Source: a virus. From it: a stretch of DNA of 64,000 nucleotides. Every line of letters starts with the position of its first letter. Position 1 is the stretch's first letter. The notes beneath the pieces are model-generated. The model had not been told where the DNA came from, did no database searches, and worked only from the letters and a program-made list of their open reading frames with translations. Location of the stretch: the IMG/VR virus record IMGVR_UViG_3300042507_005574. The stretch is one strand, 5' to 3'. Made by a program: the position numbers and the translations under genes. Positions 13,685-53,625 of the stretch are shown here, one piece after another.

Positions 13685-15337
13685 ATGGCAGTATTCTATT
13701 GGGTCGGCGGATATACAGGTTATACAGGTCCAGAAAGTGGATATAACACAACAGGTTCATATTGGACTAACTATGTTACGGGACTAACCACCTCGTATGG
13801 AGATGTATTTTATTCACCGTATGCATGGGATATTCGTCAAAACTGGAGGTTGGAGCACACTGGCCAACAACAACCTACTGATCCTGAAATTAGAGTGATT
13901 AGAGATTCAGTACCAACGAGATTACCTAAGGGTGGTGATGATGTCATCATAGGTGGAGTTGCTGCATATATTGGAACCGGACCTTATGGTGGGGGCAGCA
14001 CATCCTCAGGTGGAGCGTCTGGCGGTGGATCGGGACAGTTCTTAAGTTCACCATTAATATTTACGCCGAATATTGCACCGAATAATTTTTCACTTTTATT
14101 CGGAGGAATGTCTGGTGATGGAATCACCTCTGCCGGATTAACCGCTTGGAAAGAAGGCGGATCAACTAAACTGGCTTCATTTACAGTTAAACCATATTTC
14201 ACAAGACTTGATAAAACCATTAATTTTGGAGCATCTGGCAGCAGTATATCAATAAGAACGGGAGAGATTGGAAGTTGGGGACTCTCTTATTTGTGGGGAA
14301 ATTCAGTCCCTTCAGATTTTACTGGTGCCGCTCTTGGTAGAGCATTGACTCTTGTTAGTAATCCGATAAACTTAATTTTGGCTGATACTAACAACAACTG
14401 TTTTGTAAACAGATTACAATCTTCAAGAAGTGCAACGGGTGGAGCAGTTATTCATATCAAATCTATGAATTATGATGCTGGTTTTACTTCTGTAAGTTTT
14501 AATATGCACGGTAGATTTGGAGCAGGTTATACTGCTTCAGTTTGGGGGACAAATGAAACTTCTGCAATCAACCACTACTTAGTGCCAAGAGGAGAATGGG
14601 ACAGAGTATTGAATGATTGTGCAAATACAGAAATGAGTAATGTGGTCTGTAATTTTGTGAGGCACGGTGGATTCAGTTGGGATCGAGCGACGGGGTATTT
14701 CTCATCAGACAGAACTGCAAATATCAATGAATTTTTCATTTCATCAACTACAATAAATGGATCGAATAATAAAACTGGTGTTAATATAGAATGTTATGAA
14801 CAGGCGGCAGTTGGAAAGATTCTTGCTATAGGTTGGAGAAATCAAAGCCCAACTAACTGTATGACAATAGGAAATCTCGGTGGAATACCGTCAACAGTGA
14901 ATCAACTGTTAACTGTCTATACTGGAATCGGTATTTCAGGAAATCCTTATTTCGATTATCAATTTCCGCTAAACGCATGGAAAGAATCATATCCTTGGAG
15001 CATCAGTAATTGGTGGACTGGACCAATAGTAATGATAAGAAACTGTTTTGTGGAAGATCTAATTCATGGTGGTGGAGTGATCTTAGCAGATCCAAATTCG
15101 TCTGCGAATGATTATGTCATTCTGAAAGATGGCTTTATGGATTATCCGGCTCAAATAATATGCAAGAATTTTGAAAATCCTCAATGGAAAAATTTCTTAC
15201 TTGGATATTCCCCCAACTCAGACCTGGGAATTGGTGTAAGAACAAGAAATATTTCAAGTTCTTATTTAAACACTTACGCTAAACGGTATTTCATGATTCC
15301 GTATGATGGTCAAGGAACAACTATAACTAGAGACTGA
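13685..15337 (+). CDS. Putative virion structural protein (G/S/T-rich, beta-rich), paralogue of 15384-17045
   Basis: Shares YWVGG.TGYTG..SGY, PY.W....NWR, LP.GGDD and L.GGMSGDG.T blocks with the next gene; late promoter. Confidence 0.55.
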   Translation: MAVFYWVGGYTGYTGPESGYNTTGSYWTNYVTGLTTSYGDVFYSPYAWDIRQNWRLEHTGQQQPTDPEIRVIRDSVPTRLPKGGDDVIIGGVAAYIGTGPYGGGSTSSGGASGGGSGQFLSSPLIFTPNIAPNNFSLLFGGMSGDGITSAGLTAWKEGGSTKLASFTVKPYFTRLDKTINFGASGSSISIRTGEIGSWGLSYLWGNSVPSDFTGAALGRALTLVSNPINLILADTNNNCFVNRLQSSRSATGGAVIHIKSMNYDAGFTSVSFNMHGRFGAGYTASVWGTNETSAINHYLVPRGEWDRVLNDCANTEMSNVVCNFVRHGGFSWDRATGYFSSDRTANINEFFISSTTINGSNNKTGVNIECYEQAAVGKILAIGWRNQSPTNCMTIGNLGGIPSTVNQLLTVYTGIGISGNPYFDYQFPLNAWKESYPWSISNWWTGPIVMIRNCFVEDLIHGGGVILADPNSSANDYVILKDGFMDYPAQIICKNFENPQWKNFLLGYSPNSDLGIGVRTRNISSSYLNTYAKRYFMIPYDGQGTTITRD

Positions 15338-15383
15338 CAGAAATTAATATGAATCGAATAAATCAAATCAATCGGAGACAAAA

Positions 15384-17045
15384 ATGAACTACTACTGGGT
15401 TGGTGGACACACAGGATACACAGGTGCAAATAGTGGTTATAGTGGAGGGCTTTGGTTTAAACCCGGTTCAGTAACTGGCGGAATCACAGCCGGAGATCTA
15501 TACTTCGGACCTTATTCATGGGGTGTTGTAGAAAACTGGAGAGTCATTGAAATAAGTGATGCCATATCAGGTCTTGCTATTTATGGGATTCCAACGCAAC
15601 TGCCGCAGGGAGGTGATGATTCGGCATTCTTTGGAAAAGTTGTAAATGCTTACACTATTTCTGGAGATTCTACTGGAAGTTCTATACTAAATCCCCACAT
15701 GTATTCTTGCTTATATGGAGGTATGTCTGGAGATGGATTTACTGCATCTTCGGCAACTGGATGGGCAGGAAACAACGGAGCAGCAAGATTTCAGCCAATT
15801 GATATAAGAGTAGACAAATCATTTATTCCAGGAAGCACAACGGGTCTTCTTTTAACTGATTTAGGGAGAATAGGTGCGATTGGAATCACATCAGATAATC
15901 CTCTTCGGGTTTATCCTGGAAATACTGTTATATTTGAAAAGGCATCTGAAACTGTTGGTGCCAACATTTCTCTGAGAAGTATGTTCACTTCTAAGAGTGT
16001 TATTCAGAGTTATTCTAATGATTCTAGACTAAATCCATCTGTGGCACTTGCTTCGGATGGATCTCCTGATAATCCCGTAGTCAGTTTGGGAAGAAAATTA
16101 AAAGTAGACTTAAAGGGCGGATGGTCAAGAGTTCGCCAAGATGCAGGAACTCTAGTATTAGGACAGATGTTTACAACAAATCTTCCCGGTTATCCAGATG
16201 CGTTCGGAATAACATGGGCAAATCAACCAGCCAGTGTATTGGTTGATGGAAAAATTAGAAAATTCCTTGCTAAAGAAGATAGCAGCGTTCACTACTATAT
16301 GATTAAACCGGGATCTGTGCTTGAAGGTGTTGAGATTATTGGCAGATCTTCATTCCCTCTATCTGCAACTCATGGTCCTAATCCATCGATCATTAGAGTT
16401 TCAGGGTGGGCCGGTATGTCCGAACCTCTTTCTTCTACTGGTGGCTCAGGTAATGTAGGAACTCGTCCGCAAAATGGTATAATTTTAGGTAAAATTCCCA
16501 CAACCAACGGTCTGACTGCTGGATTACCTTTCTACATTGAAGATCTTCATATAGATAATTTCCTTAATAGTTCAGTTTTCGGAGGAACGCATCCGCCGAA
16601 TGTTTGGCTTGCAAATACTGAAATTAAAGAGTTTAAGGGAGTGGCGGGAAGAGCAATCCCCCTGACAAATGACCCCTATAACACTCCGAATAGAGTTCGC
16701 ATTAAGAATGGATTCTTGATGAATGGGTTTACTCTTGAAACTTCTGATGCATATATTGGTGCCCAAGATGGTCTTGTGAGTTTGGTAGTGGGTATCACAA
16801 ATACTTCAGGATTTAGCGGTGCCTACGCAACTGGAGTGGCTTCGAACATTGGACTCACGACAATAAGTGGTTCAATTTATGGTCTAAGATACGATAATGT
16901 ATCTCCTTTTGGAACTCAAGGTTTTCCTCCTGTTTGCACGATAACATATCCATCCTTCTTTGATGAAGGAATCATTGGGGCAACTGCATATGTCAGAACT
17001 TGGAATACAACATCACTTCAAAGACCCGCAAGTGATCCTGATTAA
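15384..17045 (+). CDS. Putative virion structural protein, paralogue of 13685-15337
   Basis: Same N-terminal blocks as the previous gene; RBS GGAG. Confidence 0.55.
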   Translation: MNYYWVGGHTGYTGANSGYSGGLWFKPGSVTGGITAGDLYFGPYSWGVVENWRVIEISDAISGLAIYGIPTQLPQGGDDSAFFGKVVNAYTISGDSTGSSILNPHMYSCLYGGMSGDGFTASSATGWAGNNGAARFQPIDIRVDKSFIPGSTTGLLLTDLGRIGAIGITSDNPLRVYPGNTVIFEKASETVGANISLRSMFTSKSVIQSYSNDSRLNPSVALASDGSPDNPVVSLGRKLKVDLKGGWSRVRQDAGTLVLGQMFTTNLPGYPDAFGITWANQPASVLVDGKIRKFLAKEDSSVHYYMIKPGSVLEGVEIIGRSSFPLSATHGPNPSIIRVSGWAGMSEPLSSTGGSGNVGTRPQNGIILGKIPTTNGLTAGLPFYIEDLHIDNFLNSSVFGGTHPPNVWLANTEIKEFKGVAGRAIPLTNDPYNTPNRVRIKNGFLMNGFTLETSDAYIGAQDGLVSLVVGITNTSGFSGAYATGVASNIGLTTISGSIYGLRYDNVSPFGTQGFPPVCTITYPSFFDEGIIGATAYVRTWNTTSLQRPASDPD

Positions 17046-17051
17046 TCTTGA

Positions 17052-17058
17052 CTAAATA
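17052..17058 (+). promoter_or_regulatory. Late promoter CTAAATA
   Basis: Intergenic, 17 nt before ATG 17075. Confidence 0.65.
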
Positions 17059-17074
17059 CAATTAAAGGACAAAA

Positions 17075-17929: not shown

Positions 17930-17932
17930 ATA
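17926..17932 (+). promoter_or_regulatory. Late promoter CTAAATA overlapping the upstream stop codon
   Basis: Precedes ATG 17953. Confidence 0.6.
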
Positions 17933-17952
17933 CCACAAAGTGGAGAAAATAA

Positions 17953-19077
17953 ATGTCGCACTGGAATAACAACGATAGAGAAGAATCAAAACCATCATGG
18001 CTCACACCAGCCCAAAAAATCAACTGCGTGAGAACATCAAAGGGATGGGAAGTTCCTCTTAATGGAACGAATGTTGGTGGAAGTCCCGATGGATTGAAGA
18101 ATCTCACCGGTCCTAGTCTTACGAGCCAAACATTCAACACCGAACTTTTAGTTTGCATGCCTAACGATGTGGTTTATGACCCGAACATTGTTGTTGCATT
18201 GACAGGTCCGATGACCATGTTCCACTTCGGTTCATCAGCAACAGGATTCTCCCTGACAGGTAATACAATTTACTATTACAATCCAGAAGCGAACTATGCA
18301 GGTGGAAGTACATCGGGTGTCGCTGCAATCGGGGTTATTGTGGCTGCAACTGCCGCTGCCGGTGCATACAATGTCCAACTCAAAGGATTCCAAAATCCCC
18401 CTAGACCGGTTCTTAGTGGTCCCCGTGATATAAACTCAACAGGAATTATGCATCCTGCTGGAGTTACTAGTGCAACTGCATCAGTTTCCTCTGTAGTGCA
18501 AATTATTGACAATGTGTTCTCAACTAGTTCACTCTATACTGGTAGAATTGCGGTGACTGGCGGATTGGATACAACCGTTGATCTTCCTAACTATGCCCCA
18601 TATATCACATGCCCATTTACCGGAGACTCAGCAACTGTTGGGGGCATCGACGGCAGAGGGGTTTCTTTCGGCACTAGTTTAACGGGAAGCGGCGGCGCAC
18701 AAGGATACTATGGAGTAGGTGCTTTTGGAAACTCCACTTTGAATTTCCCGGGGGCAACCGCTTATATCAAGATTGTTGCCAACGACAGTAACTTCACCAA
18801 TAACATTTCATTCTCAATAGTTTCAAGCACTCCTGCATTTGGAAATACAACATTGCTTGTTACAGGCTCAAGCCTTTTGACATCGACAAATGTTCCTACA
18901 GGAGTTTATGAAACATTCTTCGGACCTACCGCATCGATAAACAACAACATTGCTGTTCTCAGAATTAACAAGCCTGGTGCAACTGCAAACACGACTCGTA
19001 CAGTTGTTGTTCGTGCAAATGACGGTACGGTCGATGCTGATTCGACATTTACAATTTCATTTGGCGCAACTGCCTGA
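17953..19077 (+). CDS. Putative virion structural protein
   Basis: MSHW...KPSWL...GW N-terminus of the kind seen in T4-like structural proteins; T/G/S-rich; Ig-like C-terminus. Confidence 0.55.
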   Translation: MSHWNNNDREESKPSWLTPAQKINCVRTSKGWEVPLNGTNVGGSPDGLKNLTGPSLTSQTFNTELLVCMPNDVVYDPNIVVALTGPMTMFHFGSSATGFSLTGNTIYYYNPEANYAGGSTSGVAAIGVIVAATAAAGAYNVQLKGFQNPPRPVLSGPRDINSTGIMHPAGVTSATASVSSVVQIIDNVFSTSSLYTGRIAVTGGLDTTVDLPNYAPYITCPFTGDSATVGGIDGRGVSFGTSLTGSGGAQGYYGVGAFGNSTLNFPGATAYIKIVANDSNFTNNISFSIVSSTPAFGNTTLLVTGSSLLTSTNVPTGVYETFFGPTASINNNIAVLRINKPGATANTTRTVVVRANDGTVDADSTFTISFGATA

Positions 19078-19088
19078 TAGGATTTATT

Positions 19089-19565
19089 ATGCGTAAATTC
19101 AAGGAACTCAGAAAAACGATTTCAGAAACATCAACTGGTCTTGATATTTCTGGAATTAATCGTCCTAGAGTTGGTCCTATGGATAGTGATAATGGAATAG
19201 ATTTCAACCAAAATCTTTCACAACTAAACCCATCGGAAGTTGATAGAATTAACATGTTTTTAGGTGCTTTGTCGGCAAAACCTTATCTTGATCCGAATCA
19301 GGCAATCAAGGAAGCACAAAGTAAATTGTCAACTGTTGGACTTCAATTCAACCTTAGCAATAATGATGATTTGAGAAAGAGTGGAGAAAGAATTTACCCA
19401 CTAAGTTTGTTTGGCGGATCATTCGGATCTGATGGTAAAACCTATGGCACATCAACTGACGATAACATTGAGCGTAAAATTGGATATAAGTTAGGATTAA
19501 TGGTAACATCTGTTCCGACATCAACAGGCATGACGAGTCTCAAAGCAGAAATAATGCCCATGTGA
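19089..19565 (+). CDS. Hypothetical protein with CTS-like N-terminus
   Basis: MRKFKELRKTISE; RBS AGGA. Confidence 0.6.
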   Translation: MRKFKELRKTISETSTGLDISGINRPRVGPMDSDNGIDFNQNLSQLNPSEVDRINMFLGALSAKPYLDPNQAIKEAQSKLSTVGLQFNLSNNDDLRKSGERIYPLSLFGGSFGSDGKTYGTSTDDNIERKIGYKLGLMVTSVPTSTGMTSLKAEIMPM

Positions 19566-19580
19566 TATAAGTAATTCGTA

Positions 19581-20800: not shown

Positions 20801-20807
20801 TCTGCCA

Positions 20808-22865: not shown

Positions 22866-24866
<2,001 letters not shown>

Positions 24867-24892: not shown

Positions 24893-25861
24893 ATGATTAC
24901 AGGAAACAGCATTATTCGAATAAGGCGTGGTGCTACAGGTGGAGTGATACCTGTAGGGCTAACCTATGGCGAACTTGCTGTAAATATTACGGATCGAAAA
25001 CTCTATGTTGGTAATGAAACTGGTGCATCCGTAGAAATTTTAGGTTCAGGTGGAATAGGAACGGGTGGCGCAGAGACAACATGGGACAATCCCAACCCAA
25101 CAACTGCTACGGATATAGATGGTGTTCCAGCCGGAACGACATTTGAATTCGGAACTACTGCCATAGAAATATTAGAGCAGATTTTGTATGCAACTCCTGC
25201 ACCCCCTCCTCCACCTCCATACACATCAGTATCATTCTCTAATTTTTCATCCGGCCTCGCTTCTACCTATGAGTTAGGTGAAACAGCAGGAAATGGATCA
25301 CTATCCGTTTCATGGACAGCATCTCAGCCGCACGATAATTGGGTTCCTGCGAGTGCATACATCAGTTACAGCGGATTGTCAAACGGACAAGCATTAACAG
25401 GTGCAAGCCCGACCGCAGGAAGTGCAGTTGCTGTATATCCAGCATTCAGGTCTACAAATCTATCATCAAATACAGTTACAATTACTCTGACTGGTCAGCA
25501 AGATCAAGGATCGAATCCATCGATATCGACAACAAGTAGATGGTGGACTAAAGCATATTGGGGTAAGTCAACAAATCCCTCTTTGACGGATCCTTTGTCT
25601 CTGTCAAATGGAAGTGATGTAATTGTAACATCAGGTACAACGAGAACAATCAGTACAACTGATGCAGGTGGTTACTTTTATTTCTTCATCAATGACTATT
25701 ACTCAGTTAGCAGTATGACACTTGCAGGATTCTCTGTTGCTTTGAATGGTGTATCAACAGCATCGGTACTAAATTCTCAAGGATTCTCATCGACATATAA
25801 AATATACAGGAGTTTCTATGAACTTCCTGGCCCTCTAGATATTGTTATTACTTATTCATAA
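24893..25861 (+). CDS. Fibre/adhesin protein with Mtd-N-like N-terminal domain
   Basis: IRIRRG...LTYGELAVNITDRKLYVG, followed by a Pro hinge and beta-rich domains. Confidence 0.65.
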   Translation: MITGNSIIRIRRGATGGVIPVGLTYGELAVNITDRKLYVGNETGASVEILGSGGIGTGGAETTWDNPNPTTATDIDGVPAGTTFEFGTTAIEILEQILYATPAPPPPPPYTSVSFSNFSSGLASTYELGETAGNGSLSVSWTASQPHDNWVPASAYISYSGLSNGQALTGASPTAGSAVAVYPAFRSTNLSSNTVTITLTGQQDQGSNPSISTTSRWWTKAYWGKSTNPSLTDPLSLSNGSDVIVTSGTTRTISTTDAGGYFYFFINDYYSVSSMTLAGFSVALNGVSTASVLNSQGFSSTYKIYRSFYELPGPLDIVITYS

Positions 25862-25864
25862 ATT

Positions 25865-27397: not shown

Positions 27398-27409
27398 AGG
27401 GAAGCGTCG

Positions 27410-29266: not shown

Positions 29267-29276
29267 AGGATGACAA

Positions 29277-33234: not shown

Positions 33235-33284
33235 ATTTGATCAATTGATCTAGCATAATTAATTAATGGAGAATAGTCTGAATA

Positions 33285-40445: not shown

Positions 40446-41834
40446 ATGTCAAAACAAAGCACAATTCAACATTATTTCTCACTCACTCCCGCAGGCGTAC
40501 CCGCAGGCGCAGGAATGACTTATGGAGAAATTGCCATCAATGTGGCAGATGAAAAACTATTCATTGAAAATCTAAATGGTGATGTGATTTCCTTATCACA
40601 GACCAAAGATCTCTCGGGTGCATTTGCTCACTCAGATCAAGTCGTGACTTCTGTGAATGGTGTTACTGGTGCCATTACAAATGTTGCCGTTACCAACACA
40701 GAACAAACTTTCACGGGATTGCAAACATTTGCAAATGGAATTTCAGGAGCAGGAGCAACATTTGCAAGTGATATAACGATCCACGGAATTCGTGTTGGAA
40801 AGGGAGCAGCAGGAGATCTCAATAGTATAGTGGTTGGAATGTCTGCATGTCCGGCAGGAACATTCAATGTTGCCATAGGTAGAGAGGCAATGCGTGATTC
40901 TGTTAGTGCAATCAATAATGTTGCAATAGGATATCATGCAGCGAGAGATATTCAAGGAGGAATCAATAATGTTGCTATAGGAGCAAACGCACTAGATGAA
41001 AATGAAAATGGCTCTGTTAATGTTGCCATAGGTTCTCTTGCGCTTTCTGAATCTACAAACAGCAATCAGAATACTGCAATAGGATCATCTTCTCTACAAA
41101 ACACTACCACTGGATTTAGAAATGTAGCAATTGGTTATCTGGCTTTAGAAAAGAATACTTCCGGTGTAGCGAATGTTGCAATCGGCCACGCAGCAGGAGC
41201 ATATCGTGGCGATTTAGATTTTCTTTTTCCAAACGATTTAGACAACGAAGACAACAATGTAGGCCCGTTCAACAGAACAACAGGTACTGGCGGAATTTAT
41301 ATTGGCCAGTGGTCAAGAGCATCTGCCAATGGTAATGTAAATGAAATTGTGATAGGCACAAATGCTCTGGGTCTTGGATCAAATACAGCAGTCATCGGTG
41401 CAACCGCACAAGTTTCCGCAACTATTTACGGAACATTAAATTTACCCGGTGGTTTAAGTTCATCATCCAATTCTACACTTTCAGGCGTTAGAATTGTAAA
41501 TGAGGGGATTTATTGGAATGGATCGCAGAGAACTGTTGGGGTCAGTTTCCTCAACGGCCAAGTTCAAACGCTAACTGGAATTGGTTCGGGCGCAACAGGA
41601 ATGACTGCAATTTATTTTGTAGATGCGCCTTCGACTGGTGCGGCATCTGTAACGGTGATCATCACAAACGGTGGGCAAATGACAGGCAATCAAGACTTTT
41701 GGAGTTCGAAGATTGAATGGCCTGGTGGCGTGAAGCCATCACTATCTTTAGGGGGAGTTGATGTTGTGTCATTCCTAACTGTCGATGGTGGAACAAACAT
41801 ATATGGATTCCTTGGTGGATTGAACTTCTTATGA
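40446..41834 (+). CDS. Fibre/adhesin with Mtd-N-like N-terminus and NVAIG beta-roll repeats
   Basis: GEIAINVADEKLF; ~14-aa N(V/T)AIG repeats (YadA-head-like); C-terminal WPGGVKPSLS...DVVSFLTVDGG..YGF domain. Late promoter at 40429. Confidence 0.75.
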   Translation: MSKQSTIQHYFSLTPAGVPAGAGMTYGEIAINVADEKLFIENLNGDVISLSQTKDLSGAFAHSDQVVTSVNGVTGAITNVAVTNTEQTFTGLQTFANGISGAGATFASDITIHGIRVGKGAAGDLNSIVVGMSACPAGTFNVAIGREAMRDSVSAINNVAIGYHAARDIQGGINNVAIGANALDENENGSVNVAIGSLALSESTNSNQNTAIGSSSLQNTTTGFRNVAIGYLALEKNTSGVANVAIGHAAGAYRGDLDFLFPNDLDNEDNNVGPFNRTTGTGGIYIGQWSRASANGNVNEIVIGTNALGLGSNTAVIGATAQVSATIYGTLNLPGGLSSSSNSTLSGVRIVNEGIYWNGSQRTVGVSFLNGQVQTLTGIGSGATGMTAIYFVDAPSTGAASVTVIITNGGQMTGNQDFWSSKIEWPGGVKPSLSLGGVDVVSFLTVDGGTNIYGFLGGLNFL

Positions 41835-42712
41835 TTGGCGTTGTAAGAGCAGCATCAACTTCAAAAACAATATACAACTACCAACTCATATCCGAAACAC
41901 AATTCGGGGCGAGTGCGGGGGCGCAATCATATTCTATTCCCGCAGGAACTATTTACATTGACATAGAAATGTTTGGTGGCGGTGGCGGCGGTGGAGCGGC
42001 AAACTCTTTCACCTTTAATAGAAATACATGGTACAGTGGGGCAGGCGGTGGTGCTGGAGGTGGTTATGTGAGAGCAAAATATTTTGGTGATGCGGACGGG
42101 AAAGATGAGGTGGTTGGTGCTATAACAGGAAATATGCAGGCTGGAGATACAATACACTTTACTGTTGGTGCGGCTGGTGCAGGAGCCGCTGCAAACGGTG
42201 GTTGGGGTGCAAGTGGTGGAGCAACTTACTTACAGTCTCACCAAAGAAGTGGGACAACAATACTAACATTTGCTGGATTAACTGCATCTGGTGGAGGTGG
42301 CGGTCAAGGTGGAAGAGTTGATGGTGGTAGAGCCATTGGAGGTGCAACTGCTCAATCTGTATCATCTCTTAGCATATATTTTATAGATGGAAGTGCATCA
42401 AGATCTGGTGTCGTTGGTGGATTGACATCAACATCAGGAAGTTTTGGTGGCACTGGATCATCAGGAGCAGTCTCTGGAATAACATCAAGTATTTCTTCAT
42501 ATCAGAATGGCGGTTCGGGCGGCAATTTTGTGACGAACCAACAACCTAGAAATGGCACATCAACAATTGATCAGAGACAGTTTCCATACCTATACACCGG
42601 TGTTGCTGGTGGTGGCGGTGGGGGTGGTTATAACGAAGCAGGAACTGGTCTTACTGCTAGACAAGGTGCAACAGGTGGAATTGGTGCAGTTGTAATCAGG
42701 GCATATGGATGA
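41831..42712 (+). CDS. Glycine-rich tail-fibre-associated protein
   Basis: GGGGGGGA, GGGAGGGY, VGAAGAG and GATGGIGAVVIR motifs. Confidence 0.7.
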   Translation: MIGVVRAASTSKTIYNYQLISETQFGASAGAQSYSIPAGTIYIDIEMFGGGGGGGAANSFTFNRNTWYSGAGGGAGGGYVRAKYFGDADGKDEVVGAITGNMQAGDTIHFTVGAAGAGAAANGGWGASGGATYLQSHQRSGTTILTFAGLTASGGGGGQGGRVDGGRAIGGATAQSVSSLSIYFIDGSASRSGVVGGLTSTSGSFGGTGSSGAVSGITSSISSYQNGGSGGNFVTNQQPRNGTSTIDQRQFPYLYTGVAGGGGGGGYNEAGTGLTARQGATGGIGAVVIRAYG

Positions 42713-46602: not shown

Positions 46603-46620
46603 GATACTAAATAGTAGGCT

Positions 46621-49377
46621 ATGGCTCACTATAGACTATTCAATGCATATCCTTCTTTTGGATCCACTTTTACCGAAAATGATGTAGTACTGAATAACCC
46701 CATTCCGAATTACGGAATGATGGCTACACATTTGACCGACTACTTCGAAAATCAAATGTCTGAAACTACGGTTTCTGGTACCGATTATCTGTCGGCATTT
46801 ATTGCATCAAATAAGAGTCTGACGAGTATCGTTGAATCTGACATGACCGCAATGGCAAATGATGTCTCAATAGATTTTGGAATAACTTCATCTACTATTG
46901 GGTATGCTGCATTGGATTTCCGTGGAGAGTCATGGAAATATCTAATTGGCGATGGAATCATTGGACCGAGCAATATCAACAACACACCAGCATTTACTGA
47001 AACATTGAATGCTGCAACAAATATACTCAACTTCTTTAGAGGAAAATACCCTTCAATTAAATGGGCATTTGTTGGATTACCTCACCTTCCAAAGTACACA
47101 TGCTTTGCTCCTACTGCTGGTTCGTCTTTTTCATGGGGTGAAGGTCTCACAAATAATCCGGGTACAACAAACAATCACTGGGACGCATCACATCCAACGG
47201 GGCCATCAGGCATGTCAGGGTCTTACGGTGATAGAATATTTGAATGGAACCATACTCCTAGTAATTTGGCTGCATTCTATAAATCAAGAGTCATCGAAAG
47301 AACAAGACCAATACTAGAGGCTTCTGGTTGGTTGTGCCCCGACATTAATCCAGTTGGAACGGACAGTACGCAATTCGGATACTATGTCCATTCAATCTTT
47401 GCTCATAACTCATATACAACTGAGTTAATTAGAACTGCAAAAGAGTTTTCTCAATCTAGACTTGTGGATTGTAAAATTATTCCAGTGTTTAACAGTATGA
47501 TGAGGTCTAGGGAAAGTCATGTGTTTGACGATCCATTTGGTCAATTCAAAATAAGACGAGAAACTGAACCTGGTGGACCAAATATAGACATTCAATATCT
47601 CGCAGGATTCTCAGGTGGGTCGGGCAGTTTATATGCATCCGACATTGACTTGAGTCTCTCATTTTTAAGATCTGCCATGCTTGAGCCTGCCGCACTGAAT
47701 GGAGCAGTAGGATTTATTTACGAGGATAACATTCCTCTTATGGTAAATTTTGCATGTACTGGATCAACATCACACACTGCTCAAGAAGAAGAGGCAATAC
47801 TTAGAGCAAAAAATTTCATATCTAACACCGTCTATGATAGAACCGATATATCTTTAATTCCTTGGACATCGGTTAAAAATGAAGTTCTAAGTGTATTATC
47901 TTACAAAATAACAGCAGCACAACTTAGAGTCATATCCGAATCAATTCCTATAGGAAACTCTTGGTCATTTGTGGACAACAGAATTCAAGTTCCAGATGGA
48001 GAAAGTGTTGATGTTTCAGAATATAGAAGTGTCTTCTGGAAAAGATGTAATGCAGGGGTATGCACCGATGCAGGAGAATCATCATTCCGAGAATATAGAG
48101 AATCAAATCCATTAATTGCTGAGTGTGATGGTTGTGGTCCCCCACCACCCGACTGCAATCGTGGTGCTTGTTGTTATGAAGAGGGTGGTGTAGGTTTTTG
48201 TGGGGATGACATATGTGAAGGTGATTGTGCTGGTAATTTTATTCCACTGAGTTCAAATGTATGCGGAGCAGGAGTTCCAATCACATGTGCAAATCTCGGT
48301 GGTGCTGGTGTGGGAGAAGCAGCACCATGTTCAGAAGTAGGATTTGAAAACCGTTGTTGGACAGATATCATAGGACCACCACCTCCACCTGATCCGTGTT
48401 GTGTTGCACAAGGTCTAGATCCAGAAAAACCTTGCGTTGAAGTTAAGATTTGTTCTTATGACTGCACATTCTGCGACAATATTGATCGAGACTGTGATGG
48501 AATTCCAGATGCACCAAACGGTTGCGCCTCGCCTCCTCTTCCACCAGGTACTATAGAAGAGACAACAAAAGAAAGAACATGTAGAAAGTACCGAATTGCG
48601 GCAGGAGCATGTTGCTGTGTAGATTGTACAGGATTTCCTGGCGATACTCCTGGACTTGATAGAGATCCTCCGCAGTGTAGTGAAGGTCCAGCAGGAGGTC
48701 CACCAAACGGTCAATTTGGAACATTTGGTGGAATAGCAGGAGCAATTCGTTGTGGTCAAAACGATACCTCAACTTTACCGCTTGCTCCTGGTGGTTTTCA
48801 GTTTTGCCACGATCCTGCTCAACCTTGGCTCGACAAAGATGGTTGTCTGAAACCATGTGAAAACTTTGCATCGGTTTCAAATGATCTATGTGAATGTTGT
48901 GCAGAAAGATCTCCGAGTGGATATGAAAATCCCGATGGCACACGATGTTGTAATACTGACTCAGGACTCAGTTTTTTATGCCCTAGAGATAACTGTTTTC
49001 AACCATGTGTAAATGGTGGAGGAACAGAGTTAGACTGGCAAACAATTACTGAATCTTTATTTCAAAGTTTGTCTTTAGAACAGCAAAAATTAGTTGCAGA
49101 AGACATCTATAATTTCAATCTATATGGACATTTAGATGCAGAGACAAAACTAATTGTTGAAAACATAGCAAAGAGAACTAGGAGATTTGGATTATCAACT
49201 ATGAGAGATAGAGGCCAAGTGATGAACACTATTTCTCTTTATGAAGATATTACCAATCCAAGGAAAAACACAGTTCTTAATCTAAAGAATAATTACTTAC
49301 CTTCAGTCGAAACAGTCAATAGAATCAAATCGGAGTTTGCATTTGACAGATTCTTATTGCCAATCTCATATAAGTAA
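46621..49377 (+). CDS. Large late protein: glycoside-hydrolase-like N-terminal domain + very Cys-rich domain
   Basis: Late promoter CTAAATA at 46607; GACC-type Cys repeats and poly-Pro from ~48040 to 49010. Confidence 0.6.
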   Translation: MAHYRLFNAYPSFGSTFTENDVVLNNPIPNYGMMATHLTDYFENQMSETTVSGTDYLSAFIASNKSLTSIVESDMTAMANDVSIDFGITSSTIGYAALDFRGESWKYLIGDGIIGPSNINNTPAFTETLNAATNILNFFRGKYPSIKWAFVGLPHLPKYTCFAPTAGSSFSWGEGLTNNPGTTNNHWDASHPTGPSGMSGSYGDRIFEWNHTPSNLAAFYKSRVIERTRPILEASGWLCPDINPVGTDSTQFGYYVHSIFAHNSYTTELIRTAKEFSQSRLVDCKIIPVFNSMMRSRESHVFDDPFGQFKIRRETEPGGPNIDIQYLAGFSGGSGSLYASDIDLSLSFLRSAMLEPAALNGAVGFIYEDNIPLMVNFACTGSTSHTAQEEEAILRAKNFISNTVYDRTDISLIPWTSVKNEVLSVLSYKITAAQLRVISESIPIGNSWSFVDNRIQVPDGESVDVSEYRSVFWKRCNAGVCTDAGESSFREYRESNPLIAECDGCGPPPPDCNRGACCYEEGGVGFCGDDICEGDCAGNFIPLSSNVCGAGVPITCANLGGAGVGEAAPCSEVGFENRCWTDIIGPPPPPDPCCVAQGLDPEKPCVEVKICSYDCTFCDNIDRDCDGIPDAPNGCASPPLPPGTIEETTKERTCRKYRIAAGACCCVDCTGFPGDTPGLDRDPPQCSEGPAGGPPNGQFGTFGGIAGAIRCGQNDTSTLPLAPGGFQFCHDPAQPWLDKDGCLKPCENFASVSNDLCECCAERSPSGYENPDGTRCCNTDSGLSFLCPRDNCFQPCVNGGGTELDWQTITESLFQSLSLEQQKLVAEDIYNFNLYGHLDAETKLIVENIAKRTRRFGLSTMRDRGQVMNTISLYEDITNPRKNTVLNLKNNYLPSVETVNRIKSEFAFDRFLLPISYK

Positions 49378-49395
49378 TACAGAAAGGAGAAAGCC

Positions 49396-49509
49396 ATGTC
49401 AGAATTTCTAGGTACAACTTGGTGGAGTGTCCTCATGTTTATTGCTGGTGCTTTGATCGGTGCGCCACTTTGGAAGTGGGTATCGTCAAAAATGCCTTGG
49501 AACAATTGA
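49396..49509 (+). CDS. 37-aa single-pass membrane peptide (not in ORF track)
   Basis: MSEFLGTTWWSVLMFIAGALIGAPLWKWVSSKMPWNN*; strong RBS AAGGAGA; followed by a terminator. Confidence 0.75.
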   Translation: MSEFLGTTWWSVLMFIAGALIGAPLWKWVSSKMPWNN

Positions 49510-49532
49510 GTTCCTTAAAATAATAAACGGAC

Positions 49533-49560
49533 CAACGGGGGGAGAAATCCCCCCGTTTTC
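49533..49560 (+). terminator. Rho-independent terminator
   Basis: AACGGGGGGA-GAAA-TCCCCCCGTT stem-loop followed by Ts. Confidence 0.8.
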
Positions 49561-49591
49561 AATAGTATCTTCGTGAACTAAATAGATTGAA

Positions 49592-49795
49592 ATGCCAAAA
49601 CTTTATACAGATCTTCTCAAATCCCTTGAAGAGTGGGTTGCACACACCGCAAGGGTATCATCACGACTTAGCACCCGCACAGACCTCTCCATTAAGGCTA
49701 AGAAGCCGAGCGTGATACAACCGACACAAGTTCCCTTCTCCAAGAAAGAGAAGGCTCGTAGGGGCATACACGGCTTCCAGATAGGAGAAAAATAA
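49592..49795 (+). CDS. Small basic hypothetical protein
   Basis: 67 aa; late promoter CTAAATA at 49578; stop overlaps the next start. Confidence 0.55.
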   Translation: MPKLYTDLLKSLEEWVAHTARVSSRLSTRTDLSIKAKKPSVIQPTQVPFSKKEKARRGIHGFQIGEK

Positions 49796-52700
49796 TGGCT
49801 TTTCATGGATCTCAAGGGTTTTTTAGATTTAAAGGTGCTACATCCATACCGCAAAAAGAGGTTGGAATATCGGGGGATTCAAGATACACAAGAGAATTTT
49901 TAGATCGTGAACCCATCACCATACATGCGCCATTTAATTTAACGAGTACATTCAAAAGAGGAGATACCCCTTTTGGATTTTCTTTGCCATTCTCATATAT
50001 TCAAGATGAGTGGGATACAGTACCTGGAATTCCTAATGATTTCTACAACCTAAAGTTTTCTCCAGATTTGGTGTGGAACACATATGCATCCTTACAGGAA
50101 AATGGTGATCATGTTTTTATGGAGGAAAAAGATGGTTACATTTATATTTTGAGAAATGTAGTTCTTGCTGGTCTTACTCAAGAAAATGCTGGAATACCTG
50201 TCGTATATGATGATGAAATTGGATCTTTTTTGTCGGTTCCATATCTTTGGGGATCCGTCATAGAGGGAATTCACAGTGGAGCAAGAAGATTTATTGTTGG
50301 CCCCACGAAGAAATTTGTATCTAATCCCTTTTATGGAGAATATGACTCAACATCATTAGATATTTTGGGAGATTATGGTGATATTGCTTGTGCTGGCACT
50401 GGAGATTTTGCAGCAGGGCAAATGCTTTTGGTTATGCCTGAATATGGAACGACTGGAGTATATGATGAATCTAGACACAACATATTCAATTACTCAGCAG
50501 ATGTTCGGGTTGTATCAGGAAATTCCACTCCACTGAATTCCAATTTCCTACCACAAACTCCTTTCTCAACCGAGAATATTGATTACTCTGGATTTAGACT
50601 TAGAGACAGAAAAAAACTTCCAGTTCCATATTTTGCAGCAGATGAAGAATCGCTAATCTCAATGGTGAATGGTACTACTGTTGAACCAGATAGAACAGTT
50701 TACGGAACAAGTGGTAATCCCCAAACCCCACCATTCATTTCATTTGTCAGTTGGAAATACACAGGTTTTAATGCAAATCCCACAAGAAGACATGCATTTG
50801 CAATCACAAAAAGACACTTGCTGTCTTTATCTACGCCATTTCATAACTATGCATACTCACCCGATAATCCATATGCAAAAGATCCATTTGGATTTGCTAA
50901 TGCAGTTACAGGTTTTGTACCATTTACTGACCACCAACCTGGCGACAAAGTATATTTCTATGACAAAAACGAAAATCGTGTCATAGAAAGAACTGTGGTC
51001 GCAACACTCCCTTTCGATGTTAAAACTGTACACGAAACCTTAAATAAGATAGTAAGCGGTGCATACCCGAGACTTGAATCAACTTGGACAAATGTATATA
51101 TTGAAAACTGTGTAATTTATACGGATCCAGCAGGAGTAACTTATAATACCCCCTGCTACGAATACACACAACTGGAAGAGGGATACAATACGGAAATTGC
51201 TTTTGGGAATTATGATTATGTAGTAAACTATGAAGGGTCTCCTATCGGAGGGACAGGAGATATATCTGAGTTCGACTCAGGAAGCGAATTCGAAGATAAA
51301 TGGCTAAAAACATATCCAGAAATAACAGGCACAGAAAGCAGTCTTGAATATGCGGAGATGTTTAGTAGGATTAGAGATAAGTTTGTGCAAAATGCTTTGT
51401 ACAAAGATAATTTTAGCGGATTCGATGAAAAGTCATTTGGACCTACATCTTTCTTCGAAGTTGTACCTTTCAACTATAACTTAGGAATTGAAACTGGTGG
51501 TGTAACATCCACCACTGGAGTAGGGTGGTTTGATTCTCTAATGCCTCAAAACTATCCGATTAGAAATATGGTTGGAGGTTTACCGATAAACCTCTACACT
51601 CTCAATAATCCATCTGAAACTAACCCACTTGCACTGCAAAAAAGTTTAGGTAATAAGTTTCAAGAATCTGTTGCATTCGAAGACTCAATCACTGATGTGA
51701 ATCCGACAAGAGAAAATATAAGATCCTCGCAAGCAAATCAAAATATTGGTGTTGTTGGATATTCGGCTGAACAATCACTTGAAGAATCCGATCCTGAACC
51801 AGAAAATCCAACAGGATCCATACCTCGGATGGAAGTCGATTCCACTCTGCCAAATTCAACAATAGATGAACAATTTTACTATTTACCAACAGCAGCAAGA
51901 AATGCGATCAGAGAATATTTTCCGCATGGTTTAAACAATATATTCTACGGAAGTTTCAATGCTAATGATAAATTTAGGAGACTTTTGACATGGGAATATC
52001 TAACTAGTCATTTTAAGGGACTAATAGATGGAAAGTGCAGCATTCATTTATTGGATCAAGATCTTCCTGATGGTGTAAGACCAATATCTCTGTTAGATGT
52101 AAGAAGATCTGAATTACATAAACATGAGATGTTTGTTGATGACCAAATGAGGGGATTTATTGCAAAAAATTGCCCACCACAAACTACATTCTTTCCACTT
52201 CAATATTTTGGTAATGTTGCGATTGCCGGATGTCGAAGAGAATATGGAACTATAAATTTCGCAAGAACATATGCAAATCCTTATGGTGAATCCATGCTCA
52301 ATATGCTGTTATTTAGAGTGGGAAGATGCGGGGATAATATATCTAATGTTCTAGACGATTGTGGAGAAACCGGAAACTCATCGTCGGGACCAGAATGTAA
52401 ATGGGGAGTTTTCCAACTTAGTGTTGGATCTAATTTCCCAATACTTAGCAACGACGGAAATGATCGTGGGCTGATGTTCCCTGATGTAACTACTCAGACT
52501 AATTGTTATGATTGTTGGTATAACGGAAATGATACGATTGAGCGGTCTTTGCCGATAAATGCAAAAAACGAAGACAAATTAAATGATCTGACTATTACAA
52601 AATCCTCTTGGGGCGGTCAAGATTTACCAGGCCCACTTTTCACATATGGTAAAAGTGGATCTCCAATACTTTCTAGAATAGTAACACAAAGTTTATATGG

Positions 52701-53625
52701 GTCTTCAGATTTTGATTATCGGTATCTTTATGATTATGTTGTAACGGGACACAAAGGAGATGATATACAGGTTGGGGATGCTATATTCCAAAACTTTGCG
52801 GGAGGAACTGGAATATGCTCGTATCCCTTTGACAGTACATTTGGTTTTGTTTTTGCATACTCTAAAGATACAGGAAGACTTTTACTTTCCAGTAGAACAT
52901 CTCACCCCGTTCTTTCATCTGATATTTTAATCAGATGTGATGAAACTTTGAGACCAGTGGGTGCAACATACGGAACTACATCTGGATATGTTCAAGGCAC
53001 TTTGGGATTCCAATCTTGTGAAGAAATATCTCCATCAACTAGTGCTGGTGGATGGAAATTCAATCATTACTTAGGTAGACCAGGATATGGGTATACAAAG
53101 AAATCATCAGGGCTACCATATCCAAATGACACCGAAGTTGCGTCTTGGATGAGTATTGAAAGAGGCGGACCAAGAGTGCTTGGAAACTTTTGGTGGTATG
53201 GTCTTTGGTATGAAGGATTCCCACAATCAAGAATACAGAATAGTAAAAAAGATGATTGTACATTTGCAGAAATAGAAGACCCTGTAGCATCAAGCAACGA
53301 ATTGTATCTTGGAACTCATAATATGGGGATGTTCTTATCTGATCAACCAATCTACTATAGATCAGCAGATCCCGATGATCCGAATAAATACTATTACTTC
53401 GGTAAAGTGGAAGATATTTTTTACAGAATGTTGAATGATTTTAATGATGAAAACGGTGTGACGGGGGACTATAGATGCACAAAGGAAATCATCAAATTTG
53501 ATGGTGAATCCGATGCATACAATTATCCAAATTCCATAAGAGTTCCAGTATTGAAGTCTCAACACCCATCGCTAACAAGAATTTATGCTGGTGTTAACAT
53601 AAAAGAGACAGAGTTCTTAAAGTGA
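49795..53625 (+). CDS. 1276-aa putative virion protein with dispersed trypsin-like serine-protease motifs
   Basis: AFAITKRHLL, IHLLDQDLP and GKSGSP in the expected order; RBS GGAG. Confidence 0.5.
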   Translation: MAFHGSQGFFRFKGATSIPQKEVGISGDSRYTREFLDREPITIHAPFNLTSTFKRGDTPFGFSLPFSYIQDEWDTVPGIPNDFYNLKFSPDLVWNTYASLQENGDHVFMEEKDGYIYILRNVVLAGLTQENAGIPVVYDDEIGSFLSVPYLWGSVIEGIHSGARRFIVGPTKKFVSNPFYGEYDSTSLDILGDYGDIACAGTGDFAAGQMLLVMPEYGTTGVYDESRHNIFNYSADVRVVSGNSTPLNSNFLPQTPFSTENIDYSGFRLRDRKKLPVPYFAADEESLISMVNGTTVEPDRTVYGTSGNPQTPPFISFVSWKYTGFNANPTRRHAFAITKRHLLSLSTPFHNYAYSPDNPYAKDPFGFANAVTGFVPFTDHQPGDKVYFYDKNENRVIERTVVATLPFDVKTVHETLNKIVSGAYPRLESTWTNVYIENCVIYTDPAGVTYNTPCYEYTQLEEGYNTEIAFGNYDYVVNYEGSPIGGTGDISEFDSGSEFEDKWLKTYPEITGTESSLEYAEMFSRIRDKFVQNALYKDNFSGFDEKSFGPTSFFEVVPFNYNLGIETGGVTSTTGVGWFDSLMPQNYPIRNMVGGLPINLYTLNNPSETNPLALQKSLGNKFQESVAFEDSITDVNPTRENIRSSQANQNIGVVGYSAEQSLEESDPEPENPTGSIPRMEVDSTLPNSTIDEQFYYLPTAARNAIREYFPHGLNNIFYGSFNANDKFRRLLTWEYLTSHFKGLIDGKCSIHLLDQDLPDGVRPISLLDVRRSELHKHEMFVDDQMRGFIAKNCPPQTTFFPLQYFGNVAIAGCRREYGTINFARTYANPYGESMLNMLLFRVGRCGDNISNVLDDCGETGNSSSGPECKWGVFQLSVGSNFPILSNDGNDRGLMFPDVTTQTNCYDCWYNGNDTIERSLPINAKNEDKLNDLTITKSSWGGQDLPGPLFTYGKSGSPILSRIVTQSLYGSSDFDYRYLYDYVVTGHKGDDIQVGDAIFQNFAGGTGICSYPFDSTFGFVFAYSKDTGRLLLSSRTSHPVLSSDILIRCDETLRPVGATYGTTSGYVQGTLGFQSCEEISPSTSAGGWKFNHYLGRPGYGYTKKSSGLPYPNDTEVASWMSIERGGPRVLGNFWWYGLWYEGFPQSRIQNSKKDDCTFAEIEDPVASSNELYLGTHNMGMFLSDQPIYYRSADPDDPNKYYYFGKVEDIFYRMLNDFNDENGVTGDYRCTKEIIKFDGESDAYNYPNSIRVPVLKSQHPSLTRIYAGVNIKETEFLK

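What the first reader, a model, noticed from the sequence alone, without database searches (positions are those of the whole stretch)
13685..53625. G-x-T-(G/A) / x-T-G motif pervades predicted virion proteins: candidate O-glycosylation sequon for a phage-encoded glycan coat
Seen: unrelated, non-repetitive late proteins are full of GLTG, GVTG, GITG/A, GATG/A, GPTG and GYTG. Examples are 11 TG dipeptides in the 374-aa protein at 17953, GYTGYTG in 13685, GLTGFTG in 30868, and GGVTSTTG and GATYGTT in 49795; every fibre module also contains the motif. Replication enzymes show no such bias by eye. The same genome carries an epimerase, Glf, about five GTs and methyltransferases. Established: some phages glycosylate virion proteins with their own GTs, and bacterial O-glycosylation uses short Ser/Thr sequons. 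Inference: the phage may decorate Thr in this motif with a galactofuranose-containing, methylated glycan, with selection inserting sequons into all surface proteins.
Basis: inference. Interest (0 to 1): 0.85.

Follow-up and report, generated by a model that had tools for sequence, protein, structure and literature searches.

The report
Thr-Gly motif excess in phage fibres
The tail-fibre proteins of this uncultured aquatic T4-like phage carry a real, lineage-specific excess of Thr-Gly and G-x-T-G/A motifs. Most of it sits at conserved positions of duplicated fibre modules and collagen-like stretches, so it is probably a structural signature. A sugar-attachment role stays possible, through a different, fibre-linked enzyme rather than the galactofuranose gene island.

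Summary
In 17 glycine-rich late ORFs (13685-53625), TG is the most over-represented of all 400 dipeptides: 240 seen against about 131 expected (z about 10). The reverse GT is depleted, and G-x-T-G and G-x-T-[GA] are 3.5-4 times expected. Codon usage and frame show a protein-level signal. T4 and cyanophage S-RSM4 fibres, equally G/T-rich, show no excess, so composition does not explain it.

However, 63% of the TGs lie in paralogous repeat modules or collagen-like runs shared by five fibre genes, so the proteins are not "unrelated, non-repetitive". A smaller excess survives dereplication (88 against 56-62).

A syntenic, 93%-complete relative has the same motif excess but a different sugar island, with no Glf, GT25 or methyltransferases. 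Its capsid, tube and baseplate proteins show no excess. In two protein families the TG-over-GT asymmetry sits only in conserved columns, and Thr is replaced by Ala more often than by Ser. I therefore favour a structural signature of the fibre folds (0.5).

The glycosylation idea survives in altered form (about 0.27). Relatives encode a conserved late GT2 glycosyltransferase between fibre genes whose only solved relatives are protein or peptide glycosyltransferases (GmaR, SunS). Homologues also sit beside G-P-T collagen-like fibres in other phages, including an unrelated jumbo phage. Readers of adjacent windows of this genome noted the same motif and enzyme.

The parts
295..1410 (+). UDP-galactopyranose mutase (Glf), first gene of the sugar island seen in this window
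   Evidence: PF03275 E 9.7e-74. No homologue in five large relatives, including the 93%-complete G001.
1382..3629 (+). GT2_4-type glycosyltransferase (1382-2200), unassigned ORF (2205-2858) and GT25-type glycosyltransferase (2871-3629)
   Evidence: PF13704 E 9e-13 and PF01755 E 3e-13. None has a BLASTP match in G001.
3717..5077 (+). Weak GT2-like protein (3717-4370) and unassigned ORF (4373-5077). These are the only island genes conserved in relative G001.
   Evidence: PF00535 E 0.001, below the curated cut-off. 59% and 63% identity to G001 ORFs at 123009-123653 and 117538-118245.
5091..6346 (+). Two Methyltransf_24 (TylF-like) methyltransferases
   Evidence: PF13578 E 2e-19 and 6e-19. Absent from G001.
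13685..17045 (+). Two paralogous 550-aa glycine-rich proteins with a YWVGG-x-TGYTG N-terminus and no family assignment
   Evidence: TG 13 vs 5.9 (z 3.2) and 8 vs 6.0. 30% of 15384 is masked as a paralogue of 13685. No Pfam or PHROG hit for 13685 and no PHROG hit for 15384. CTAAATA lies 36 nt upstream of 13685.
17953..19077 (+). 374-aa beta-rich protein of a family found only in uncultured aquatic myovirus contigs
   Evidence: TG 11 vs 5.2. 71 homologues found. Only some TGs are conserved. The family as a whole has G.T[GA] 438 vs 81. The AF2 model is poor, pLDDT 49.7.
22866..24866 (+). Collagen-like tail fibre. Gly-X-Y runs at about 23247-23870 (mostly charged X/Y) and about 24123-24260 (G-N-T / G-P-T triplets).
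   Evidence: PHROG tail-fibre and collagen-like minor tail families, E down to 2e-54. Sequence read. TG 11 vs 7.7, G.TG 5 vs 1.4.
24893..29266 (+). Three fibre proteins (24893, 25865, 27410). 24893 has an Mtd_N-like N-terminus. 25865 and 27410 share the module F-Y-G-L-T-G-P-T ... T-G-D-R-L-L-I-A-T-G-P ... W-F-Q-T-G (two copies and one copy).
   Evidence: Sequences. Masking 43% and 74%. TG 19 vs 8.6 and 17 vs 10.0. Orthologues in G001 at 38-58% identity.
29698..30852 (+). 384-aa fibre protein: collagen-like N-terminus, shared modules and a conserved C-terminal domain with near-invariant V-T-G-G motifs
   Evidence: TG 18 vs 9.3, GT 2. Alignment A2 has 17 conserved TG columns against 1 GT column. 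AF2 pLDDT 48.9.
30868..33234 (+). 788-aa Cys-rich, non-repetitive protein with a moderate TG excess
   Evidence: TG 15 vs 7.6 (z 3.0), 0% masked. No family hit.
33285..40432 (+). Two long modular fibre proteins (1548 and 711 aa) built from tandem copies of a few modules: L-T-G-V-A-S-F-D; Y-Q-V-T-G-D-T-V; G-V-T-S-F-N-G-L-T-G-N-V-T-L-T-G-D; G-V-T-G-I-G-F-G ... G-L-T-G-K-I-N
   Evidence: TG 65 vs 26.3 (z 8.7) and 24 vs 11.9. 89% and 66% masked as repeats. Module counts. PF24253 DUF7454 matches module A. 46% identity over 1255 aa to G001 94635-99107.
40446..42712 (+). Tail-spike-like beta-helix protein (40446) and a Gly_rich_2 protein with 25% Gly (41831). Neither has a TG excess.
   Evidence: PHROG tail spike E 3e-21. 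PF21722 E 5e-12. TG 9 vs 6.0 and 5 vs 6.5.
46621..53625 (+). Two large unassigned late ORFs. 46621 has no excess and 49795 a modest one.
   Evidence: TG 3 vs 5.4, and 14 vs 8.0 with G.TG 5 vs 0.7. No PHROG hits.

Best explanation
The TG / G-x-T-[GA] excess is a conserved sequence signature of the fibre folds of this phage lineage. It has three sources. The first is a small kit of 10-40-residue beta-type modules, each with one or two hydrophobic-Thr-Gly positions, duplicated many times within and between five fibre genes. The second is collagen-like Gly-X-Thr triplets. The third is conserved Thr-Gly positions in a few other beta-rich late proteins.

Mechanism (inferred): Thr, a beta-branched residue, ends a strand, and Gly takes the turn or tight-packing position that follows. 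Purifying selection keeps these pairs and gene-internal duplication multiplies them. The sugar island at 295-6346 is a separate, variable cargo whose target is unknown.

Shown: the excess, its orientation, its concentration in repeats and in conserved columns, its presence in relatives with other sugar genes, and its absence from other T4-like phages. Inferred: the structural role of Thr-Gly.
For: - 63% of TGs lie in paralogous repeats or collagen runs.
- In the full set the other enriched dipeptides (LT, AS, VA, SF, GD) are simply the neighbours of TG within module L-T-G-V-A-S-F-D.
- In alignments A1 and A2 the TG-over-GT asymmetry is only in conserved columns (9 vs 2; 17 vs 1). At variable columns it is absent (25 vs 34; 41 vs 42).
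- At conserved TG columns Thr is replaced by Ala (17) more often than by Ser (8). G.S[GA] has no directional excess in these families.
- The syntenic relative G001 (GC 50.7% against about 40% here) keeps the same modules and the same excess (TG 71 vs 33; 42 vs 18) with a different sugar island.
- Capsid, tube and baseplate proteins of G001 show no TG excess.
- A glycine-rich non-fibre protein (41831, 25% Gly) shows none.
Against: - The excess is absent from equally G/T-rich fibres of T4 and S-RSM4, so it is not a general property of fibre proteins.
- A residual excess survives dereplication in non-repetitive proteins.
- The four-residue motif exceeds its reverse even at variable columns: 56 vs 31 summed over three families.
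- The non-conserved middle of the tail sheath carries 2-7 motifs in ten members of the clade, at varying positions, against 0 in T4.
- No structural model could be obtained to show that Thr-Gly sits at turns; both AF2 models have pLDDT about 49.
- A protein-glycosyltransferase-like late gene sits among fibre genes in relatives.
Confidence: 0.5

Rival explanations
1. The motif, or at least its G-X-T collagen-like and loop instances, is the acceptor site of a phage-encoded cytoplasmic protein O-glycosyltransferase. The enzyme would be the conserved late GT2 with a helical, TPR-like C-terminus encoded between fibre genes, not the Glf island as such. It would start a glycan on Thr of fibre and sheath-surface proteins during assembly. 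The variable island between uvsX and the helicase could supply or extend lineage-specific sugars.
For: - The excess is specific to the lineage that has the enzyme. G.T[GA] observed/expected is 3.6 (window) and 3.2 (G001) against 1.05-1.15 in T4 and S-RSM4, which lack the enzyme.
- The G001 412-aa GT2 lies between two fibre-like genes. It is 75-83% identical in G002 and G003, and is present in at least 520 IMG/VR stretches.
- CTAAATA lies 25-30 nt upstream of the gene in 51 of 72 loci. The same motif precedes fibre genes in the window.
- Its only PDB relatives at E < 0.01 are GmaR (flagellin GlcNAc transferase, 3e-9), SunS (peptide S-glycosyltransferase, 9e-7) and 7msk.
- Some family members carry TPR Pfam domains.
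- In L134 the homologue is flanked on both sides by G-P-T collagen-like fibres. In the unrelated jumbo phage Tunturi_5 a 36%-identical homologue lies 4 kb from a fibre with G-A-T / G-P-T runs (G.T[GA] 66 vs 8.7).
- This mirrors C. difficile SgtA (GT-A plus TPR), encoded next to bclA3, which adds GlcNAc to Thr of G-P-T triplets (PMC7157674).
- Sheath motifs lie only in the part that does not align to T4.
Against: - There is no direct evidence of any glycan.
- The enzyme was seen only in relatives. Its presence in this genome rests on unchecked notes from other windows.
- The TG asymmetry is confined to conserved columns.
- Thr-to-Ala is more common than Thr-to-Ser and there is no Ser version of the excess, whereas SgtA accepts Ser.
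- Capsid and tube lack the motif.
- Huge phages with a 31%-identical homologue have no motif-rich neighbours within 20 kb.
- Thr in the Y position of bacterial collagen-like triplets is common without any known enzyme (own knowledge).
- TPR in the G001 protein itself is only E 0.019.
- The clade comparison rests on few, phylogenetically non-independent genomes.
Confidence: 0.27
2. The motif serves another protein-level function peculiar to this lineage. Examples are a repeated ligand-binding (host glycan-binding) loop, or replacement of deamidation-prone Asn-Gly turns by Thr-Gly in long-lived virions.
For: - The excess is lineage-specific and oriented.
- NG is below expectation in the dereplicated set, 32 vs 44.9 (z -2.1), while TG is above.
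- The residual excess sits in non-repetitive proteins of unknown function (13685, 30868, 49795).
Against: - NG is kept inside the commonest module (F-N-G-L-T-G).
- No binding function is known for any of these proteins.
- The NG deficit is weak.
Confidence: 0.1
3. The pattern is an artefact of glycine and threonine richness, of local composition, or of a DNA-level word.
For: The proteins have 11-25% Gly and 6-13% Thr.
Against: - Shuffles within 12-residue windows still give z 9.7, or 3.7 after dereplication.
- The reverse dipeptide is depleted or neutral.
- Equally G/T-rich fibres of T4 and S-RSM4 show no excess.
- Codon choice at TG equals background, and ACNGG is almost only in frame.
Confidence: 0.02

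Closest known systems
BclA-type collagen-like spore glycoproteins and their GT-A/TPR transferase (C. difficile BclA3 and SgtA; PMC7157674)
   Same: G-X-T triplets give the word G-x-T-G. The transferase is a GT-A fold with a C-terminal TPR and is encoded beside its substrate gene. The phage late GT2 has the same order of parts and sits beside G-P-T / G-A-T collagen-like fibre genes in L134 and Tunturi_5, and between fibre-like genes in G001.
   Different: In this window only short stretches of 22866 and 27410 are G-X-T collagen; most TGs are in non-collagen modules. SgtA accepts Ser, but no Ser version of the excess is seen. No sequence comparison with SgtA itself was possible. No glycan has been shown.
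Mycobacteriophage virion glycosylation (Freeman et al. 2023, cited in PMC12619734)
   Same: Phage-encoded glycosyltransferases that act on virion proteins.
   Different: In that system the glycans sit at the C-termini of capsid and tail-tube subunits. Here capsid and tube (in relative G001) lack the motif, and the candidate sites are internal positions of fibres.
GmaR (Listeria flagellin O-GlcNAc transferase) and SunS/ThuS peptide glycosyltransferases
   Same: They are the only solved relatives of the late GT2 found in relatives of this phage, E 3e-9 to 1e-4 over the GT-A core. GmaR has a GT domain followed by TPR (PMC9638930).
   Different: Similarity covers about 100 residues of the catalytic core only. 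The NCBIfam SunS model scores 33 bits against a cut-off of 350. The enzyme is outside this window.
Modular, repeat-built phage fibre shafts (T4 gp34/gp37 repeats; adenovirus-type shaft repeats)
   Same: Short beta-type units with a conserved small-residue turn, multiplied by duplication and shuffled between paralogous fibre genes.
   Different: T4 fibres have no TG or G.TG excess. The resemblance of module L-T-G-V-A-S-F-D to adenovirus shaft repeats rests on my memory and on one weak language-model hit (score 0.79, rank 26), which is only a lead.

Membership tests
Collagen-like (Gly-X-Y) triple-helix segments with Thr in Y | Uninterrupted runs of Gly at every third residue | tested here: met
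   22866 residues about 128-335 and 420-465, with PHROG collagen-like tail fibre families. These runs hold only about 5 of the 240 TGs.
Collagen-like (Gly-X-Y) triple-helix segments with Thr in Y | The motif G-x-T-G arises mainly from such runs | tested here: not met
   Most G.TG lie in modules without period-3 Gly, such as N-G-L-T-G-N-V-T-L-T-G-D. G..G overall is only 1.33x.
BclA/SgtA-type O-glycosylation of G-X-T repeats | A GT-A plus TPR glycosyltransferase encoded next to the repeat protein | tested here: inconclusive
   Met in relatives (G001, L134, Tunturi_5). No such gene lies in this window and the rest of the genome is not held. TPR in the G001 protein is only E 0.019; it is present in some family members.
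BclA/SgtA-type O-glycosylation of G-X-T repeats | O-linked sugar on the Thr of the repeat | not testable with these tools
   Needs mass spectrometry or glycan staining.
Short-sequon general O-glycosylation ('sequons inserted into all surface proteins') | The motif is enriched across unrelated exposed proteins, including variable surface positions | tested here: not met
   No TG excess in capsid, tube or baseplate wedge of G001. TG equals GT at variable columns. Partial exception: G.T[GA] vs its reverse is 56 vs 31 at variable columns, and the sheath middle region carries motifs.
Short-sequon general O-glycosylation ('sequons inserted into all surface proteins') | Ser and Thr are interchangeable at the acceptor position | tested here: not met
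   T to A 17 against T to S 8 at conserved TG columns. G.S[GA] has no directional excess in the families. G.SG is, however, 2.6x by shuffle in the window.
Mycobacteriophage-type virion glycosylation | Glycosylated C-terminal Ser/Thr extensions on capsid and tail-tube subunits | tested here: not met
   G001 capsid: TG 3, GT 4, expected 3.0. Tube: TG 0. These genes are not in the window.
Motif tied to the Glf / methyltransferase island | Relatives with a different island have a different motif, or none | tested here: not met
   G001 lacks Glf, GT25 and Methyltransf_24 and has DegT, an epimerase and a GT47-like gene instead. Its G.T[GA] is still 3.2x and it has the same modules.

The most novel reading that the evidence does not exclude
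A very large clade of aquatic T4-like phages, and some unrelated jumbo phages, O-glycosylate their tail fibres and the outer face of the sheath. They would do so on the Thr of G-x-T-G/A, using a conserved late GT2-TPR enzyme related to GmaR, SunS and SgtA. The hypervariable sugar island next to uvsX would set the lineage-specific glycan (here containing galactofuranose and methyl groups). This would be a phage counterpart of spore BclA glycosylation and a widespread case of virion glycosylation outside mycobacteriophages.
Probability: 0.2. Interest if true: 0.8.

Novelty: new member of a known kind. Interest (0 to 1): 0.45.

Why it matters
If the motif is structural, it gives a compact signature for a widespread but unannotated family of modular fibre repeats in uncultured aquatic myoviruses, and a warning that motif counts in paralogous fibres are not independent. 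If the altered glycosylation reading holds, phage virion glycosylation would not be an oddity of mycobacteriophages. It would be common in aquatic phages, with consequences for host recognition, particle stability and grazing or immune recognition. The enzyme-substrate pair is small, soluble and directly testable in E. coli.

Tried and rejected
- Composition and local-composition artefact: rejected by global, 30-residue and 12-residue shuffles.
- DNA-level word: rejected by codon usage and frame.
- General property of G/T-rich fibres: rejected with T4 gp34-37 and the S-RSM4 fibre and virion structural proteins and with whole-genome sums.
- Mapping the motif onto structure failed. AF2 with 18- and 20-sequence alignments gave pLDDT 49.7 and 48.9 with disordered shafts, so no fold search was run.
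- PDB sequence search of the fibre modules found nothing.
- Cultured-phage relatives of the fibre modules and of 17953 were not found by megablast or tblastn.
- The window's own contig is not in IMG/VR and no whole genome is held, so the late GT2 could not be checked in this genome.
- The Freeman et al. paper is not held.
- The language-model atlas gave only sub-threshold leads.
- Huge-phage homologues of the GT2 had no motif-rich neighbours.
Full report
WHAT THE WINDOW IS
The window is part of an uncultured T4-like myovirus. PHROG hits identify gp46/47-like SbcCD, the gp55 late sigma factor, UvsW, UvsY, gp32, primase, ThyX and ribonucleotide reductase. UvsW is about 50% identical to those of marine cyanomyoviruses and Methylophilales phages. 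There is no nucleotide match to cultured phages and no whole genome is held.

Bases 295-6346 are a sugar island: Glf, a GT2_4 and a GT25 glycosyltransferase, a weak GT2 and two Methyltransf_24 genes. The range of the finding holds fibre-like and unassigned glycine-rich ORFs, interleaved with primase, ThyX and RNR. The word CTAAATA, a T4-type late-promoter-like motif, lies 14-36 nt upstream of 13685, 17953, 29698, 40446, 46621 and four other genes. 'Late' is therefore plausible for several of these ORFs.

Yes. In 17 late ORFs, per-protein shuffles give:
- TG 240 vs 130.9 (z 11)
- GT 90 vs 131.6
- G.TG 75 vs 18.6
- G.T[GA] 98 vs 27.6
- the reverse GT.G 11 vs 18.9

TG ranks first of all 400 dipeptides, even when residues are shuffled only within 12-residue windows. 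The 36 other ORFs show nothing: TG 24 vs 25.6. Codon choice at TG sites equals background, and ACNGG is in codon phase 0 in 240 cases against 12 and 17 in the other phases. The signal is therefore in the protein.

Composition does not explain it. T4 gp34-37 and six G/T-rich fibre and structural proteins of cyanophage S-RSM4 show no TG, G.TG or G.T[GA] excess. Over whole genomes, G.T[GA] observed/expected in ORFs with at least 9% Gly is 3.57 (window), 3.23 (relative G001), 1.08 (S-RSM4) and 1.06 (T4).

The proteins are not unrelated or non-repetitive. 25865, 27410, 29698, 33285 and 38297 are built from a shared kit of short modules:
- L-T-G-V-A-S-F-D
- Y-Q-V-T-G-D-T-V
- G-V-T-S-F-N-G-L-T-G-N-V-T-L-T-G-D
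- G-V-T-G-I-G-F-G ... G-L-T-G-K-I-N
- F-Y-G-L-T-G-P-T ... T-G-D-R-L-L-I-A-T-G-P

BLAST self-comparison masks 43-89% of these five proteins. 152 of the 240 TGs lie in such repeats or in the collagen-like runs of 22866.

After masking, a smaller but real excess remains: TG 88 vs 56-62 (z 3.7-4.7), G.TG 19 vs 6.3, G.SG 19 vs 7.3, and GT at expectation. It is carried mainly by 13685, 17953, 30868 and 49795. Some glycine-rich or large ORFs have none: 41831 with 25% Gly, and 46621.

RELATIVES
The 374-aa protein at 17953 has 71 homologues in metagenomes and 45 loci in IMG/VR. In those loci, ORFs with at least 13% Gly have TG/expected 1.83, GT/expected 0.57 and G.T[GA] 5x.

One contig, G001, is 168 kb, 93% complete, has GC 50.7%, and is syntenic with the window gene for gene. 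Its fibre block carries the same modules and the same excess, for example TG 71 vs 33 and 42 vs 18. Its major capsid, tail tube and baseplate wedge proteins, identified, show no TG excess.

Its island between uvsX and the helicase is different: a DegT aminotransferase, an epimerase/dehydratase, a GT47-like protein and two GT2 proteins, with no Glf, GT25 or Methyltransf_24. The motif does not change with the island.

CONSERVED OR INSERTED?
In the alignments of the 17953 family (A1) and the 29698 family (A2), columns where TG occurs in few sequences are as many as those for GT: 25 vs 34 and 41 vs 42. Conserved TG columns far outnumber conserved GT columns: 9 vs 2 and 17 vs 1. The asymmetry is therefore inherited at fixed positions and not sprinkled into variable loops.

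At conserved TG columns Thr is replaced by Ala 17 times and by Ser 8 times. These results favour a structural role. Two points cut the other way:
- The four-residue word G.T[GA] exceeds its reverse at variable columns too, 56 vs 31 summed over A1, A2 and ten sheath proteins.
- The G001 tail sheath has seven motifs against 0.8 expected. All lie in residues 96-322, the part that does not align to T4 gp18. Nine other sheaths of the clade have 2-5 each at differing positions. T4 has none and S-RSM4 has three.

A DIFFERENT ENZYME CANDIDATE
G001 encodes a 412-aa GT2 between two fibre-like genes in the late structural block. What is known about it:
- It is 75-83% identical in G002 and G003 and absent from T4 and S-RSM4.
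- It is found in at least 520 IMG/VR stretches and in thousands of metagenomic proteins, a few of which carry TPR domains.
- CTAAATA lies 25-30 nt upstream in 51 of 72 loci.
- Against all PDB sequences its only matches below E 0.01 are GmaR, SunS and 7msk, all protein or peptide glycosyltransferases. GmaR is a GT domain followed by TPR and adds GlcNAc to flagellin (PMC9638930).
- TPR in the G001 protein itself is weak, E 0.019.

In locus L134 the homologue is flanked on both sides by fibres with long G-P-T / G-A-T collagen runs. In the unrelated jumbo phage Tunturi_5 a 36%-identical homologue lies 4 kb from a fibre with such runs (TG 77 vs 30; G.T[GA] 66 vs 8.7). This mirrors C. difficile, where SgtA (GT-A plus TPR), encoded next to bclA3, adds GlcNAc to Thr of G-P-T triplets (PMC7157674). 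Two huge phages with 31%-identical homologues have no motif-rich neighbours.

Unchecked notes from adjacent windows of this genome report such a late GT2-TPR between fibre genes about 30 kb beyond this window, and the same motif idea (e1-5632976, e1-5632969, e1-5632975). I could not verify this in the genome itself.

VERDICT
The excess is real, oriented, protein-level and specific to this phage lineage. Most of it reflects conserved Thr-Gly positions of duplicated fibre modules and collagen-like triplets, which I take as a structural signature (0.5).

The specific reading of the first stage is not supported in its particulars. That reading was a sequon for a galactofuranose-containing, methylated glycan, inserted into all surface proteins.

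A modified reading remains open at about 0.27: O-glycosylation of G-x-T-G in fibres and the sheath surface by the conserved late GT2, with the variable island perhaps supplying sugars. It is cheaply testable. Both AF2 attempts failed, so the 'surface loop' test could not be done.

Noticed in passing
L048:12082-13317 (-), i.e. G001 32082-33317; homologues in L059-L138: A conserved 400-420-aa GT2 with a helical C-terminus sits between two fibre-like genes in the late structural block of relatives. Its only PDB relatives are GmaR, SunS and 7msk. It occurs in at least 520 IMG/VR stretches.
   Followed up: partly
L158:11995-13098 (+) and L158:16807-21216 (-) (Tunturiibacter phage Tunturi_5 gp35 and gp29): An unrelated 309-kb jumbo phage has a 36%-identical homologue of that GT2, 4 kb from a 1469-aa tail fibre with long G-A-T / G-P-T collagen-like runs (G.T[GA] 66 vs 8.7 expected).
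   Followed up: partly
L134:5244-13620: The GT2 homologue (56% identity) is flanked on both sides by fibre genes with long G-P-T / G-L-T / G-A-T collagen-like arrays (TG 47 vs GT 1 in one of them).
   Followed up: partly
L059-L074, 80 nt upstream of the GT2 start: Besides CTAAATA, many loci have a sigma-70-like TTGACA ... N17-18 ... TATCAT pair just upstream, so the gene may be read both early and late.
   Followed up: no
window 13649, 17052, 17926, 21830, 29669, 40429, 43329, 46607, 62154 (+); 59492 (-): CTAAATA lies 14-36 nt upstream of ten gene starts, including the ribonucleotide reductase gene at 43360. 9 of the 13 plus-strand copies are so placed.
   Followed up: partly
window 13685-17045: Two paralogous 550-aa proteins begin with Y-W-V-G-G-x-T-G-Y-T-G ... 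N-W, which recalls the W-x-G ... N-W openings of autotransporter-type beta-strand repeats (from memory). No family hit.
   Followed up: no
window 33285-37931, residues about 752-770: Module L-T-G-V-A-S-F-D ... F-G-I-G-A-S-G-H-V matches Pfam DUF7454 (31 bits, above cut-off). A language-model search gave a sub-threshold hit to adenovirus shaft repeats (score 0.79).
   Followed up: no
window late ORFs after dereplication: Asn-Gly is below expectation (32 vs 44.9, z -2.1) while Thr-Gly is above. This might reflect avoidance of deamidation-prone turns.
   Followed up: no
G001 115042-125508 (L052/L053): The island between uvsX and the helicase in the relative holds a DegT aminotransferase, an epimerase/dehydratase, a GT47-like protein and two small GT2 proteins. 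Only the window's 3717 and 4373 genes are shared, so the slot is a variable sugar cassette.
   Followed up: partly
window 30868-33234: A 788-aa Cys-rich ORF with no family hit has a 31%-identical partial homologue in G001 (82468-83991).
   Followed up: no
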